In this document: one piece after another, positions 54,497-57,637 of the stretch
How the letters are laid out: every line of letters begins with the position of its first letter
Numbering within the stretch: the stretch's first letter is position 1
From: Candidatus Latescibacterota bacterium
Lineage (GTDB): Bacteria; Latescibacterota; UBA2968; UBA8231
Length of the DNA: 64,000 nt
Assembly (NCBI GenBank): GCA_965215195.1
Contig: CBDCDC010000002.1
Span: forward strand, 2,752,001-2,816,000
Reading direction: 5' to 3'
The notes under the pieces: generated by a model
What the model saw: only the letters and a program-made list of their open reading frames with translations
What the model was told of the DNA's origin: nothing
Database searches by the model: none
Position numbers and translations under genes: made by a program

Positions 54497-57400
54497 CTAA
54501 CCCACCGGCAGTCCGACAAAGAGCCGGCTGGACACGCTGCTCAGCGGCTCAACTTCGCCGCGCTCGGCCGCCCTAGCAAAGACTACGCCCGGCTGCGCGG
54601 CCCGAGCGGCCCGGCCCAAGACGTGATAATCGGCCCGGCCGGGCTGTTGGGCCGCTTCCCGCGCCTCGCTCCAGCCCTCGTTGGTGGCGGCCAGACCCCA
54701 CAAGGCACGCGGTGCCCGCACCTTGGCCTCCTCCACCGACAGGCCATCGCGCCAACAACCGCGCTGGGCGAACAAACTACCATCTTCCCGACAGATCAGC
54801 CCACCACCCACGTATTGGATCACCTGCTGTTGGTTGCCTCGCGCCCCCGATAGCGTCAACAGGGCTAGGGGCCCCAAGTCGTTGTCGGCGAAATCGGCCT
54901 GCTGGTAGAAAGCCGCCACTAACTCGTCGCTGTACATTTGCCACTCGTCCCCATGGACCTCTTTGGGTTGCTCTGGCCACTCCTTGCCCGAACCGAGGAA
55001 GGGGTTGAAGGAGGCCCCTGACTGCTTGCAGACCTCAAAGCCGCGCCGCGTCAGCCGGTCGAGTACATCCAGCGCTCGCTCCAAACCCTCGCGCTGCAGC
55101 ACCTGAGCGAGCAAGCGATTGAGATCGCGCTTGGTGAACAGCCGGCTGCCATCCACCGCCATTCCGGTCAGCCCCTCCACTTCGGCACGGCCTTCCTCCG
55201 TGCGACACAGCCGCGCCAAGCCCCATGTCATGCCGTGATAGTTGTCGGCCACGTAACGCCAGACATCCGCATCGCGCTGGATGTGTCCGGCCACCGACAG
55301 CGCGGTCTCGGCTTCGGCCTGGGCTTCCTCGGTGAGGGGCAAAAACACCTCGATGGAGTCGCCGTCGAAATCTAGCTCCATTAGTCGGCAAACGCGCGGA
55401 TGGACGCGCACTGCGGCCCCGGCCAAGCGCTGCGGGCGAAAGGCCACCACTGCGGTGGACATTGGGCCTTCGTCAACCAGCATCCGCTGGGCGCTGTACA
55501 GCAGCACCCACGAGCGCGCCATGATCGCGTCCAGAGCCTCAGTCGCCCGGGCCGAGCACCGCACCACTTCGTCGGCGCGACCTATCTCCCGCTCCACCTG
55601 AGGCCCGAACAAAGCCCAAGCCATTTCTTCGGGCAGGCCCACTTGGTCGAGATTCAGCTCAAATCCCGAGACGAGCGCGGCCCGGCCGCTAAACAGCGGT
55701 CTGGCCCGGAAGTGAAGGTGGTCCGGGCGCAACAACGCGGCGAAAAAATCCGCCACCCGCTGGGCCACTCGGGCCATTGCCGGTCCGACTAGGGGCTCCG
55801 GGGCCTCGCTGTCAACGACGCGCTGCAAGCGCGTATTGGCTTCGACCAAATCCTCGAAGCAGCCTCGGATTGGGTCGAACTCGGTTTCCGCGGGCAAAGC
55901 GACGGGAGCGCCCACCGTCCCCACTTGGCGTCCCGGAGCCCACGGGTGCGGCACGGGCTGGGCTAGGGTCAGCCCCTCGGGCTCGGCAAAGGAGAAGCGC
56001 AACGTTGCACTCGCTAACTCGGCTCGTATCCCGGCCATACCCAACAACTGCTGTAACAAGGCAAAGCGCGGGGATGGTGGGGGAGACGGGGATATTGGGC
56101 CAGAGGTCAAGTGCTGGCCCAGCGCATGGGCGTCGGCCCGCTCGGCCGCGGCCGTGTTGAACAAAGCGTGGATATTGGCTACGGCCCCGGCCTCGCACAA
56201 CGCTCCGTAGGCCATCATGTCGAGCTCTGGTCCGCCGACTCCTGCGACCGCAGTTTCCAAGCGCTCGGCCGCGGTGTGGGTGCGGCCCCAGTACACCCAA
56301 CCCACAGTGCTGCGATAGGGCAGCTTTGCGCCTTGGAGGGTCAGTTGCTCCATGCCGTCTCGGGGCAGTCCCGCCGCCGCCAGACGCGCTTTTAACGTCT
56401 CTTCGCTGGGTGCTCGAAAAGGCGGCACCACGGCCGGAGTCCCTTCGGCTTGGGCGAGGCGGCCCATGACTGCCTCGCGCTGTTGGCCGAAATTGAGCCG
56501 CGAGATCATACTGGTAGGACTGAAAATGAGTTCTAGCGGTGCCCCATCGGGCAACTGCGGCATATCGGCGTCGGGCAGGATGCGCGTCACCACCCCTTTG
56601 GCGCCGTGGCGGTTGCTCATGCGGTCGCCCACTCCCACTGCGGCGGGAAAATCCATCCGCGCCGCGGCCGATTCGCTGATGACCAAGCCATCCTCAAACG
56701 TGTCTCCGTCCCACATGATGAAGGCGGTCAGCAGATTGTAGCCACCCCAAAAGTCGGGGGCTTCGGGCTCGTACCCGGTCTGTACTAGGGCTGGCTCGGG
56801 TTTGTTGCCCTTGGAGGCCAAGCGCTGATCGTACTGCTGGCGGAACCAGCCCGTGGAGTGGACCGGTGCCCCTGTAGCGGCCGCGCTCGTCCACTGGCGC
56901 ATCATATTGACGCCCATCAGGGCGCGATTGGTATCGTCGTGTTCGAGGAAGGGGACCATGGAGGCCGAAAAACCCAAAATGCTGTCGGGCGCTGGGTCGA
57001 TCCGTTCGAGCTTGCCGTCGCGGATGCGGGCCCCGCGGGCGACTTCGAGTACGCGGCCGATATTGGGTCCCTCGGGGGTGCAGTAGGGGCATACTAGGCC
57101 GTATTGGCTGTAGGGGAAAACGTCTTGGCTGTCAAAAGACGCGACGACCAGCCGCCGCAGATGGGTATAGCGGTCGAGCCAGTTGGTCGCCTGTAGGTAC
57201 TGCGAGGTTTCCTCCAAGTGGAAGTCGCGCATCCAAGCGTCTAGCGGCAGCCAGTTGTGCACCAAGTCGCCGTCCCAAGCCAACTGCTCGGGGGCCGCCT
57301 CCAACCTCTGGTCAATAAAATCGCAGAGCTGCTCGCCCACGCACAGAATTCGCGCTTGCTCGAGCTCGCGCCGGTCGGGATAGGGGACCACGATCCGGTA

Positions 57401-57637
57401 GTTGCCCTCAATGCGGAAAAGGCCATCGCGGTCGGGCCGCGGCAGGTCGCGGTACTCAACCTCGACCGAGGCGTCGCCGAGTCCCAAGCTCAGTTTAATG
57501 GAAAAAGTATAAGGGCCCTGTTGTTCGACTTGATAGTCGGCCAGCGGCAGGCGCTTACCCAAGAGCCGGGGCAGTCGCTGGTGGACGAAAAGGTCAAAGG
57601 ACTCCCTGTGCCAAGGTACGTCGAGATTCAATGTCAT
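54497..57637 (-). CDS. Miniaturised single-chain RNA polymerase beta-beta' fusion protein
   Basis: RpoB motifs ([51 protein letters not shown]) followed in order by RpoC motifs (SGR....GLP..MA..LF.P, VHP.VC...DFDGD, SGARG, AA..G..E.L). Confidence 0.88.
   Translation of the reverse strand: [1046 protein letters not shown]

What the first reader, a model, noticed from the sequence alone, without database searches (positions are those of the whole stretch)
54497..57637. Miniature single-chain RNA polymerase (beta-beta' fusion) of only 1046 aa
Seen: one ORF carries RpoB core motifs ([87 protein letters not shown]). These are followed in canonical order by RpoC motifs ([9 protein letters not shown]; FSGR...GLPEEMA..LFGP; HPRVC...DFDGD at 55358-55372; SGARG; C-terminal [10 protein letters not shown]). 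Known: cellular beta plus beta' total well over 2000 aa, and the natural fusions in Helicobacter and Wolbachia are full length. Here peripheral domains are deleted in frame, and the gene lies outside any rplL/rpsL context. Inference: a selected, stripped double-psi-barrel enzyme or an RNAP mimic rather than random decay.
Basis: partly seen in the sequence, partly recalled or inferred. Interest (0 to 1): 0.96.

Follow-up and report, generated by a model that had tools for sequence, protein, structure and literature searches.

The report
Single-chain mini RNA polymerase with own sigma
This is an intact, conserved gene for a fused and heavily trimmed copy of the two large RNA polymerase subunits, always paired with its own small sigma factor, which suggests that some bacteria carry a compact second transcription machine that nobody seems to have described.

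Summary
Window 54497-57637 (-) is one intact 1046-aa ORF with RpoB motifs followed by RpoC motifs. The full rplKAJL-rpoB(1264 aa)-rpoC(1380 aa)-rpsLG operon lies elsewhere in the same genome.

It is neither decay nor a chimera:
- Contigs from 3 independent studies are colinear across it.
- dN/dS is about 0.16.
- AlphaFold gives one compact fold, pLDDT 90.
- The family-specific N-terminal domain defines at least 168 clusters at 50% identity.
- Members occur in several phyla.

New here: an ECF sigma gene sits directly upstream on the same strand in 34 of 36 related loci. One bipartite ECF-type promoter, TGAACY-N14-GG[ACT]GTC, precedes the pair in 35 of 37 loci.

Retained: fork, both barrels, NTP-binding arginines, DFDGD, clamp helices, funnel, bridge helix. 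Lost: protrusion/lobe, flap, rudder, trigger loop, jaw.

Best reading (about 0.5): an autoregulated sigma plus single-chain RNA polymerase module. Rivals are a sigma-sequestering core mimic and a sigma-independent polymerase. No paper on the family was found. The sigma frameshift in this assembly is absent from public reads.

The parts
54497..57637 (-). Single-chain reduced beta-beta' RNA polymerase homologue, 1046 aa (P0001)
   Evidence: Open ORF. Pfam and NCBIfam matches. AlphaFold2 pLDDT 90.1, pTM 0.87. dN/dS 0.16.
57248..57637 (-). Family-specific N-terminal domain, residues 1-130. Residues 1-97 have no match to RpoB.
   Evidence: hhalign starts at family column 98. As a query it finds 168 clusters at 50% identity, always at the N-terminus. 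dN/dS 0.12. The Atlas gives only a weak lead to viral beta N-terminal domains, score 0.91-0.92 with a low count of shared features.
55976..57346 (-). Beta-like part, residues 98-554: fork domain, PFLEHDD motif, ED (315-316), GD..NRHGAKG (337-348) and the beta C-terminal clamp piece. The flap (own RpoB about 782-1021) is missing.
   Evidence: hhalign probability 100%, E 6e-46, to own RpoB 395-1260. HMMER segments.
55733..55885 (-). Helical hairpin, residues 585-635, equivalent to the beta' clamp helices. By recalled knowledge this is the docking site of sigma region 2.
   Evidence: AlphaFold helices H585-609 and H614-635. They align to own RpoC 278-320.
54674..55861 (-). Beta'-like part, residues 593-988: clamp helices, dock, active-site barrel, funnel, bridge helix. 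The rudder is shortened. Trigger loop and jaw are absent.
   Evidence: hhalign probability 99.8%, E 7e-30, to own RpoC 278-787. Nothing aligns to RpoC 791-1297.
55358..55372 (-). DFDGD metal-binding triad, residues 756-760
   Evidence: The triad is intact in 65 of 68 full-length representatives and in 97 of 112 near clusters.
54650..54736 (-). Bridge-helix equivalent, residues 968-996
   Evidence: AlphaFold helix H968-996. It aligns to the RpoC bridge-helix region.
57634..58257 (-). ECF sigma factor gene (sigma2 plus sigma4). In this assembly it is split into two ORFs. Its stop TGA overlaps the polymerase ATG (ATGA).
   Evidence: Sigma70_r2 in 57887-58420. Sigma70_r4_2 in 57634-57915. Sequence read. 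Intact 199-aa orthologues in relatives.
57888..57937 (-). 25-nt tandem duplication (2 x 25 nt) that frameshifts the sigma gene in this assembly
   Evidence: Absent from L005, L006 and L018. The 25 nt are left out in contigs of 4 of 4 public runs laid.
58279..58304 (-). ECF-type promoter TGAACC-N14-GGCGTC, 21 nt upstream of the sigma ATG
   Evidence: There is exactly one occurrence, on the gene strand upstream of sigma, in 35 of 37 loci. It appeared in 0 of 2000 shuffled upstream windows.

Best explanation
The locus is a self-contained, autoregulated two-gene module: promoter, then ECF sigma, then a single-chain mini RNA polymerase.

The polymerase derives from bacterial rpoB-rpoC by fusion and in-frame loss of peripheral domains, and is about 40% of their combined length. 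It keeps the catalytic core: both double-psi barrels, the Mg triad, the ED and K motifs, NTP-contacting arginines, fork, funnel and bridge helix. It also keeps the beta' clamp-helix hairpin, on which sigma region 2 docks.

Proposed mechanism:
1. The sigma, first with host core, fires the conserved TGAACY-N14-GGYGTC promoter and makes itself and the mini-polymerase through translationally coupled genes.
2. Sigma then docks on the clamp helices of the mini-polymerase.
3. The pair synthesises RNA as an alpha-, flap- and trigger-loop-independent enzyme.

Shown here: the architecture, selection, synteny, promoter conservation and retained catalytic residues. Inferred: catalysis, sigma binding, template and targets. 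The biological output is unknown. One guess is a transcription channel that host-RNAP inhibitors cannot reach.
For: Gene reality and selection
- The ORF is intact and the canonical rpoBC operon lies elsewhere.
- The predicted fold is compact and confident: pLDDT 90.1, pTM 0.87.
- Purifying selection acts along the whole length. The median over 171 pairs is 0.163 and regional values are 0.08-0.22. Sigma gives 0.117 over 17 genes.

Family size and range
- The best 120 relatives of 43-98% identity are listed.
- 168 clusters at 50% identity carry the N-terminal domain at E<=1e-3, and 122 at E<=1e-10.
- Loci are labelled Latescibacterota, Poribacteria, Chloroflexia, Anaerolineae, Capsulimonas and Gemmatimonadota.
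- 66 of 168 genomes of the phylum hold the gene.

Catalytic centre
- DxDxD is intact in 65 of 68 full-length representatives, most with NRAP... and NADFDGDQ-like motifs.
- R238, R247, R343, R380, D338 and D758 are invariant or at least 90% conserved across 36 sequences. By recalled E. coli numbering these include the NTP-binding arginines.
- The window protein has E315, D316, K347 and D756/758/760.

Sigma link
- A sigma homologue lies directly upstream on the same strand in 34 of 36 loci.
- Stop and start overlap (ATGA) in the window and in 19 of 30 loci with a single spanning ORF.
- Sigma and polymerase are the only genes shared by 16 diverse loci.
- The clamp-helix hairpin is retained.
- The promoter is present once in 35 of 37 loci.

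Complex prediction (sigma with residues 463-1053 of L006)
- The verdict is weak support: score 0.55 against a best control of 0.27.
- 58 of 80 solved complexes and 2 of 110 mismatched pairs reached the mark. At 0.60 or under, only 7 of those 80 solved complexes reached it, as did both mismatches that passed.
- The runs agree in at least 51% of contacts and the partner pLDDT is at least 67.
- The pass may only reflect likeness to solved sigma-beta' complexes.

Precedent and circuit logic
- YonO is reported to be processive although it lacks most conserved domains (PMC5467207, abstract and passages).
- The only recognisable copy of the promoter in the genome is the module's own. A purely inhibitory role for the polymerase-like protein would therefore leave the circuit without an output.
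Against: - The beta flap is deleted. By recalled knowledge this is the normal docking site of sigma region 4, needed for -35 recognition. Use of the bipartite promoter by the mini-enzyme is therefore doubtful, and host core may be the only user.
- Trigger loop, rudder and jaw are absent.
- In the window's own clade the switch-2 motif is S-A-Q plus a 6-residue insertion instead of R-A-P. The residue before the triad region is E instead of N.
- 15 of 112 near clusters lack one Asp of the triad: D756N in 8, D756S/Y in 2, D758A in 1, D760N in 4. So do 3 of 68 representatives. K347 is replaced in several. Catalysis is therefore dispensable in some lineages.
- No second promoter copy or regulon was found. 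Genus-wide motif counts do not exceed the reversed-pattern control.
- The gene is accessory. It is absent from 9 of 30 genomes of the genus, including single-contig genomes about 95% complete. Three copies in the genus are partly deleted.
- The complex prediction is only a weak pass.
- There are no biochemical or expression data.
Confidence: 0.5

Rival explanations
1. Core-RNAP mimic acting as an anti-sigma or sigma buffer. The protein keeps the sigma-docking clamp helices and the overall core shape. It sequesters its cognate ECF sigma away from host core, giving negative feedback on an autoactivating sigma. Catalysis is irrelevant.
For: - The gene occupies the position typical of an anti-sigma: immediately downstream of the ECF sigma and translationally coupled to it. 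That this position is typical is recalled knowledge of ECF operons.
- No other conserved neighbour could serve as the regulator.
- The flap is lost, so a productive -35/-10 holoenzyme is doubtful.
- The triad or K347 is substituted in 15 of 112 near clusters that nonetheless keep full-length ORFs.
- The window's clade has lost the switch-2 R and P.
- The sigma complex prediction gives weak support: 0.55 against a best control of 0.27, with the counts given under the best explanation.
Against: - The triad is intact in 65 of 68 representatives. NTP-contacting arginines, the GD..NRHG.KG motif, the fork and the bridge helix are conserved across phyla. That is unnecessary for a decoy.
- All 48 near clusters sharing the window's residue pattern keep all the catalytic residues scored.
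- 1046 aa is costly for a sequestering role.
- No sigma target other than the operon itself was found, so the circuit would have no output.
- No anti-sigma domain was found in Pfam.
Confidence: 0.17
2. Sigma-independent specialised polymerase. Sigma with host core only switches the gene on. The mini-enzyme then acts alone on unusual templates such as ssDNA, nicks, ends or RNA, as YonO and QDE-1-type two-barrel enzymes can. Possible uses are defence, repair or priming.
For: - The catalytic core is conserved.
- Flap and rudder are lost, opening the RNA-exit and hybrid regions.
- The strict promoter occurs only at its own operon.
- The distribution is patchy and accessory, as for conflict systems: 66 of 168 genomes.
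- Published precedents are two-barrel single-chain enzymes (PMC5467207 and PMC2919709, passages read; PMC9508822, search listing and abstract only).
Against: - The clamp-helix hairpin is retained and conserved, which is hard to explain without a sigma-like partner.
- There was no PADLOC hit.
- The neighbours are metabolic genes, not a defence island or mobile element.
- No phage or plasmid record holds a full-length relative: 0 records with at least 80% coverage.
Confidence: 0.2
3. Phage- or mobile-element-borne polymerase of the YonO or jumbo-phage type, sitting in a prophage remnant.
For: - Single-chain two-barrel polymerases are known from prophages (PMC5467207).
- PHROGs match P0001, but only through generic beta and beta' families.
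Against: - No phage genes occur in 16 diverse loci or in the window's flanks.
- tblastn against 50,697 phage records and 72,556 plasmid records gives no full-length match. The hits are canonical rpoBC.
- GC content is similar to the flanks.
- The family tree roughly follows the taxon labels.
Confidence: 0.03
4. Decaying rpoBC duplicate or assembly chimera.
For: - Three copies in the genus carry deletions.
- The Chloroflexia loci L035 and L040 are fragmented.
- The sigma gene is frameshifted in this assembly.
Against: - dN/dS is 0.16.
- The same architecture recurs in more than 100 clusters across phyla.
- Independent contigs are colinear with the ORF.
- The frameshifting duplication is absent from 4 of 4 runs laid.
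Confidence: 0.01

Closest known systems
Canonical bacterial RNA polymerase beta and beta' (RpoB, RpoC)
   Same: It has the same active-site architecture and motif order. The best PDB sequence matches are bacterial beta (E 4e-42) and beta' (E about 3e-20) chains. Fork, both barrels, clamp helices, funnel and bridge helix align.
   Different: It is one chain of 1046 aa, against 1264 + 1380 aa in the same genome. It lacks protrusion/lobe, external domain, flap, rudder, trigger loop and jaw. It scores 157 bits against the rpoB cut-off of 801. It is accessory rather than universal, lies outside the ribosomal-protein operon, and has a dedicated sigma.
Full-length beta::beta' fusions (NCBIfam NF007172 and NF011417; the Helicobacter and Wolbachia attribution is recalled)
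   Same: The fusion order is the same, beta then beta'. Partial matches have E 1.5e-43 and 2.9e-40.
   Different: Those models are 2890 and 2839 positions long with cut-offs of 5372 and 4632 bits. This protein scores 148 and 137 bits. Those fusions are the cell's only polymerase, whereas this one is an extra, reduced copy.
YonO of Bacillus prophage SPbeta (PMC5467207; PMC2919709)
   Same: Both are roughly 100-kDa single-chain two-barrel polymerases lacking most peripheral domains including the trigger loop. YonO is the precedent that such an enzyme can be processive (abstract and passages read).
   Different: YonO is reported to share only a few residues with the cellular enzyme and is prophage-borne. 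This protein aligns to beta and beta' over about 850 residues and is chromosomal with a sigma partner. tblastn of P0001 against the phage collection returned no Bacillus phage record. No direct comparison with YonO was run.
Orf6 of yeast cytoplasmic killer plasmid pGKl2 (PMC2919709, passages read)
   Same: It has nearly the same design: a 982-aa Rpb2::Rpb1 fusion with about half of the coding sequence deleted and element-specific insertions at the N-terminus and at the junction.
   Different: Orf6 is eukaryotic, plasmid-borne and of Rpb2/Rpb1 descent. This protein is bacterial, of beta/beta' descent, chromosomal and sigma-linked. The resemblance is convergent design, not membership.
ECF sigma / anti-sigma operons
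   Same: An autoregulated ECF sigma has a translationally coupled downstream gene.
   Different: The downstream gene is an RNAP homologue with no anti-sigma domain. The main text of the ECF reclassification paper (PMC7826278) has no occurrence of RpoB, Rpb1, Rpb2 or 'polymerase subunit'. Its supplements could not be seen.

Membership tests
Two-double-psi-barrel RNA polymerase superfamily | Beta-type barrel with ED and K motifs | tested here: met
   E315-D316 and K347 are present. Rpb2_6 E 5.4e-29. Aligned to own RpoB.
Two-double-psi-barrel RNA polymerase superfamily | Beta'-type barrel with the DxDGD metal triad | tested here: met
   DFDGD at residues 756-760. Rpb1_2 E 2.2e-11.
Two-double-psi-barrel RNA polymerase superfamily | Invariant switch-2 Arg and Pro, two of the eight invariant residues listed in PMC2919709 | tested here: not met
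   The window protein and its clade have S715 and Q717 plus a 6-residue insertion. 21-23 of 36 family members, and most of the 68 representatives, keep R-A-P.
Cellular multisubunit RNAP (rpoB and rpoC equivalogs) | Full-length match above the curated cut-offs | tested here: not met
   rpoB 157 bits against 801; rpoC 84.7 bits against 963.5.
Cellular multisubunit RNAP (rpoB and rpoC equivalogs) | Flap, trigger loop and jaw present | tested here: not met
   Nothing aligns to RpoB about 782-1021 or to RpoC 791-1297.
Cellular multisubunit RNAP (rpoB and rpoC equivalogs) | Assembly with alpha dimer and omega | not testable with these tools
Full-length beta::beta' fusion (NF007172, NF011417) | About 2850 aa, and the sole polymerase in the ribosomal-protein context | tested here: not met
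   1046 aa. A separate canonical rpoB-rpoC pair sits in the rplKAJL/rpsLG operon. Scores are far below the cut-offs.
YonO-like prophage polymerases | Prophage or phage context | tested here: not met
   No phage genes in the flanks or in 16 related loci. No full-length phage match.
YonO-like prophage polymerases | Sequence membership in the YonO family | not tested
   No YonO sequence was fetched. There are only indirect negatives.
Sigma-dependent holoenzyme | Clamp-helix coiled coil for sigma region 2 | tested here: met
   Helices 585-609 and 614-635 align to RpoC 278-320.
Sigma-dependent holoenzyme | Flap-tip helix for sigma region 4 | tested here: not met
   The flap region is absent.
Sigma-dependent holoenzyme | Physical binding of the cognate sigma | tested here: inconclusive
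   Weak support only: 0.55 against a best control of 0.27. 58 of 80 solved complexes and 2 of 110 mismatched pairs reached the mark. At 0.60 or under, only 7 of those 80 solved complexes reached it, as did both mismatches that passed.
ECF anti-sigma factors | Anti-sigma domain | tested here: not met
   Pfam reports only RNAP domains at E<=1.
Known anti-phage defence systems (PADLOC) | Match to a defence-system model | tested here: not met
   0 families at E<=1.

The most novel reading that the evidence does not exclude
Several bacterial phyla carry a complete orthogonal transcription system in two genes: an ECF sigma and a 1046-aa single-chain beta-beta' polymerase. Together they recognise promoters and make RNA without alpha, omega, flap or trigger loop. 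It would be a natural minimal sigma-dependent cellular-type RNA polymerase, derived by reduction from rpoBC. The N-terminal family-specific domain would replace the flap as the seat of sigma region 4.
Probability: 0.4. Interest if true: 0.92.

Novelty: new variant of a known kind. Interest (0 to 1): 0.8.

Why it matters
If the protein is active, it shows how far the cellular-type polymerase can be trimmed while still using a sigma factor. That bears on which domains are essential for initiation and elongation, and on models of RNAP evolution. So far these rest on phage (YonO) and yeast-plasmid (Orf6) oddities.

A 3.8-kb module of sigma, polymerase and defined promoter would also be an attractive orthogonal expression part.

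If it is instead a core mimic, it would be a new class of anti-sigma that works by imitating the polymerase.

Either way, a family with at least 168 clusters at 50% identity across several phyla is annotated only as 'hypothetical protein' wherever a source gives a name.

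Tried and rejected
No superposition on holoenzyme structures could be made.
- Expression: the look-up of sequencing runs listed no RNA holder. This says nothing about expression.
- Regulon search: the strict motif gives 4 hits in the genome. Counts across 31 genomes of the genus are no higher than for the reversed pattern. Recurrent extra hits also occur in genomes without the module (G133, G138). 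I guessed these lie in conserved coding sequence but did not check. A -10-only or degenerate motif was not searched.
- Sigma-polymerase fusions (Rosetta stone): the long open frames of 1194-1244 aa in G150, G159, G165 and G166 are stop-free upstream stretches in another frame. They are not fusions. In the 150 proteins listed the N-terminal domain starts within the first 90 residues of the hit, mostly at residues 1-32. I did not run the search for homologous proteins with 'longer' or 'shorter', so split or much longer forms are not excluded. The Atlas lists other fused clusters of 1164-1787 aa as leads only.
- Defence system: no PADLOC match.
- Phage or plasmid origin: rejected.
- Third conserved gene: none among ORFs of at least 100 aa in 16 loci. 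Smaller ORFs were not clustered. In the window only 46 nt separate the polymerase stop from the convergent PhyH gene.
- Literature: searches found no paper on this family. Iyer and Aravind 2012 (PMC3769190) is not held and may bear on priority. Supplements are closed.
- The horizontal-transfer question was only glanced at, with a FastTree of 20 sequences rooted at midpoint. The other 17 loci were left out as redundant or fragmentary. No clade test was run.

Full report
**Observation**

Window 54497-57637 (-) is a single open frame of 1046 codons. DFDGD sits at residues 756-760, which is nt 55358-55372.

Profile searches place three domains in one chain: Rpb2 domain 3 (residues 146-205), Rpb2 domain 6 (best stretch 335-452, E 5.4e-29) and Rpb1 domain 2 (729-780, E 2.2e-11). 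NCBIfam matches rpoB at 4.2e-46 and rpoC at 3.4e-24. Both are far below the equivalog cut-offs, at 157 against 801 bits and 85 against 964 bits. The models for known full-length fusions are 2839-2890 positions long.

The same genome holds a normal operon, rplK-rplA-rplJ-rplL-rpoB(1264 aa)-rpoC(1380 aa)-rpsL-rpsG-fusA-tuf, about 0.84 Mb away on the same contig.

**Not an artefact, not decay**

I laid contigs of four public runs from three studies on 54400-58500. They cover the ORF with substitutions only and no indels inside it. One contig from an independent study spans 54400-57797, and several cross the beta/beta' junction.

Nineteen close orthologues give a Nei-Gojobori dN/dS of 0.163 (median of 171 pairs, range 0.126-0.206) at a median dS of 0.29. 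Every segment is constrained (0.08-0.22), including the N-terminal 130 residues that resemble nothing in RpoB (0.12).

AlphaFold2 with a 36-row alignment gives one compact model with mean pLDDT 90.1 and pTM 0.87.

**What is kept and what is gone**

HMMER and hhalign of the family profile against the organism's own subunits give this map:
- Residues 98-554 align to RpoB 395-1260 (probability 100%).
- Residues 593-988 align to RpoC 278-787 (probability 99.8%).

Kept:
- the fork domain with the rifampicin-cluster-like stretch
- the PFLEHDD..NR..MG..N..RQ block
- ED, and GD..NRHG.KG
- the beta C-terminal clamp piece
- a two-helix hairpin (AlphaFold H585-609 and H614-635) that aligns to the beta' clamp helices
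- the dock, and the active-site barrel
- the funnel
- a 29-residue helix (968-996) that aligns to the bridge helix

The C-terminal AAERGE..PL....RLFVGLP resembles the end of beta' as I recall it. No profile confirmed this.

Gone:
- the first roughly 395 residues of beta (protrusion and lobe), replaced by a family-specific domain
- the external domain
- about 240 residues between ED and GDK, which I name the flap from recalled architecture
- about 20 columns of the rudder region
- everything in RpoC 791-1297 (trigger loop, jaw)

The protein is about 40% of beta plus beta'.

**The family**

The word-index search returned 120 best hits of 43-98% identity. 112 of the 121 sequences, counting the query, are 950-1200 aa long. 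Wherever a source gives a name, it is 'hypothetical protein'.

I used the N-terminal 130 residues alone as the query, so that canonical RpoB cannot contaminate the count. That search finds 168 clusters at 50% identity at E<=1e-3 and 122 at E<=1e-10. The domain always lies at the protein's N-terminus. 64 of the 147 new representatives are at least 900 aa long, and I assume the shorter ones are fragments.

Thirty-six loci from species-representative genomes carry labels of Latescibacterota, Poribacteria, Chloroflexia, Anaerolineae, Capsulimonas and Gemmatimonadota.

Within the window's phylum:
- 66 of 168 genomes have the gene.
- 21 of 30 genomes in the genus have it.
- Some single-contig genomes about 95% complete lack it, so it is accessory.
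- It is usually single-copy.
- Three copies in the genus are partly deleted: L016 lacks sigma and promoter; L022 lacks the stretch from the sigma N-terminus to polymerase residue 93; G136 keeps only the last 304 residues.

No phage or plasmid record holds a full-length relative. PADLOC has no match.

**The sigma partner**

Directly upstream on the same strand lies an ECF sigma with sigma2 and sigma4 domains. Its TGA overlaps the polymerase ATG.

- A homologue of this sigma is found immediately upstream in 34 of 36 related loci. The two exceptions are L016, where it is deleted, and L038, where the contig starts inside the polymerase. In L022 only 41 residues remain.
- The 4-nt overlap recurs in 19 of 30 loci with a single spanning ORF.
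- In a clustering of all ORFs of at least 100 aa from 16 diverse loci, sigma and polymerase are the only shared genes. The other shared clusters are antisense shadows.
- The sigma is itself constrained (dN/dS 0.117 over 17 genes).
- It diverges in step with the polymerase: 41-54% identity against 40-53% in distant loci.

**The promoter**

Twenty-one nt upstream of the sigma ATG lies TGAACC-N14-GGCGTC, at 58279-58304 on the minus strand. It has the shape of an ECF promoter.

- The pattern TGAACY-N14-GG[ACT]GTC occurs exactly once, on the gene strand upstream of sigma, in 35 of 37 loci counting the window. The two without it are again L016 and L038.
- It occurs nowhere else on either strand of those 37 loci, each up to about 19 kb long.
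- It occurred in 0 of 2000 shuffled upstream windows.
- In the window's genome the strict pattern has 4 hits, one of them this site.
- Across 31 genomes of the genus its frequency does not exceed that of the reversed pattern.

The only recognisable target of this sigma is therefore its own operon.

**Active-site state**

Among 68 full-length representatives at 50% identity, 65 have all three Asp. Most read like canonical enzymes (NRAP..., NADFDGDQ).

Across 36 aligned members the following are invariant or at least 90% conserved: R238, R247, R343, R380, D338, G337, N152, R161, D758, F757 and G759. By recalled E. coli numbering these include the NTP-contacting arginines.

The window's clade is more derived:
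- Switch 2 reads S-A-Q with a 6-residue insertion instead of R-A-P.
- E replaces the N two residues before the triad.
- ED, K347 and the triad are nevertheless kept in all 48 near clusters that share the window's pattern.

Sister lineages have lost one triad Asp or K347. In all, 15 of 112 near clusters lack one Asp, including a Poribacteria group with Asn at the first position. Catalysis looks ancestral and is usually retained, but it is not indispensable everywhere.

**Does sigma bind?**

A complex prediction was run for the natural L006 pair, full sigma with polymerase residues 463-1053, each supplied as an alignment. The verdict was weak support: 0.55 against a best control of 0.27.

- 58 of 80 solved complexes and 2 of 110 mismatched pairs reached the mark.
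- At 0.60 or under, only 7 of those 80 solved complexes reached it, as did both mismatches that passed.
- The runs agree in at least 51% of contacts, and the partner pLDDT is at least 67.

Because sigma-beta' complexes are solved, the pass may be memory of likeness. The N-terminal 462 residues were left out for the size limit, so a seat for sigma region 4 there could not be seen.

**Interpretation**

The data establish a conserved autoregulated module of promoter, ECF sigma and single-chain reduced polymerase.

I favour a working polymerase that uses this sigma (about 0.5), for four reasons:
1. The catalytic core is conserved across phyla.
2. The sigma-docking hairpin is retained.
3. The genes are translationally coupled.
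4. A circuit whose only target is itself needs the polymerase as its output.

The main difficulty is the missing flap. As I recall, flap-less E. coli enzyme cannot use -35/-10 promoters. So either host core is what reads the conserved promoter, or the family-specific N-terminal domain or junction region seats sigma region 4.

Two rivals stay open:
- A core mimic that buffers sigma (about 0.17). This is favoured by the anti-sigma-like gene position, the lost flap and the eroded active sites in some lineages.
- A sigma-independent polymerase on special templates (about 0.2).

Phage origin (0.03) and decay or chimera (0.01) are rejected.

**Comparison and novelty**

The design is closest to Orf6 of the yeast killer plasmid pGKl2, a 982-aa Rpb2::Rpb1 fusion with half the sequence deleted (PMC2919709, passages). 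Functionally it is closest to YonO (PMC5467207, abstract and passages).

It differs from both in three ways: bacterial beta/beta' descent with about 850 alignable residues, chromosomal location, and a dedicated sigma with a conserved promoter.

Eight literature searches found nothing on this family. The main text of the ECF reclassification paper does not mention an RNAP-like neighbour. Iyer and Aravind 2012 could not be read, and supplements are closed.

I class it as a new variant of a known kind. The Atlas hints at further fused families of 1164-1787 aa, so the territory may be larger.

**The sigma frameshift**

In this assembly a 25-nt tandem duplication at 57888-57937 splits sigma into a sigma2 ORF and a sigma4 ORF. 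The extra 25 nt are absent from contigs of all 4 runs laid, including a 1248-nt contig that differs by only 2 other letters.

It is therefore an assembly error or a private variant. It is not a feature of the system.

Noticed in passing
window 57888-57937 (-): A 25-nt tandem duplication frameshifts the ECF sigma gene in this assembly. It is absent from three relatives and from contigs of 4 of 4 public runs laid. It is probably an assembly error or a private variant.
   Followed up: yes
L016:7300-8004; L022:7767-8211; G136:C1:3423341-3424364: Three genomes of the same genus carry partly deleted modules. In L016 the sigma and promoter are gone. In L022 a deletion runs from the sigma N-terminus to polymerase residue 93. 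In G136 the promoter is joined to the last 304 residues. This suggests ongoing loss of an accessory module.
   Followed up: partly
G071:C1:1427408-1430581 and G071:C1:3369203-3371734: One genome of the same class holds two copies of the mini-polymerase, each about 47% identical to the query.
   Followed up: no
L035:7965-11220; L040:8001-11150: In the two Chloroflexia loci the polymerase reading frame is broken into 2 and 4 ORFs. I did not check whether these are sequencing indels or real pseudogenes.
   Followed up: no
window 56913-56953 (-): A 41-nt stretch encoding [14 protein letters not shown] also matches contigs of other organisms, with loose ends on both sides. Nucleotide-level conservation with canonical rpoB genes is the likely cause.
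   Followed up: no
window 41902-48519 (+): A three-gene RND efflux set: an outer-membrane factor fused to an N-terminal extension (789 aa), a HlyD-type adaptor, and an AcrB-type pump (E 1.9e-162). It is followed by a 517-aa AAA/STAND-like ATPase at 48694-50247.
   Followed up: no
window 50429-54450 (+) and 61208-63131 (-): Two clusters pair a SAM methyltransferase with a PhyH-type dioxygenase. The first also has two GFO/IDH/MocA oxidoreductases. Both flank the module and may be small-molecule tailoring genes.
   Followed up: no
Atlas clusters: Other metagenomic clusters carry Rpb2_6 and Rpb1_2 in one protein of 1164-1787 aa, with taxa not recorded. These are possibly further families of reduced fused polymerases.
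   Followed up: no
L028, L029, L031, L036, L039 upstream of sigma: In these loci the conserved promoter lies about 135-250 nt upstream of the sigma start that I had assumed from the alignment, against about 20 nt in the window's clade. ORF calls put the L028 start at 7232, leaving a leader of about 70 nt, while L031 and L036 leave about 210 and 170 nt. I did not examine these leaders for a small ORF or an RNA element.
   Followed up: no
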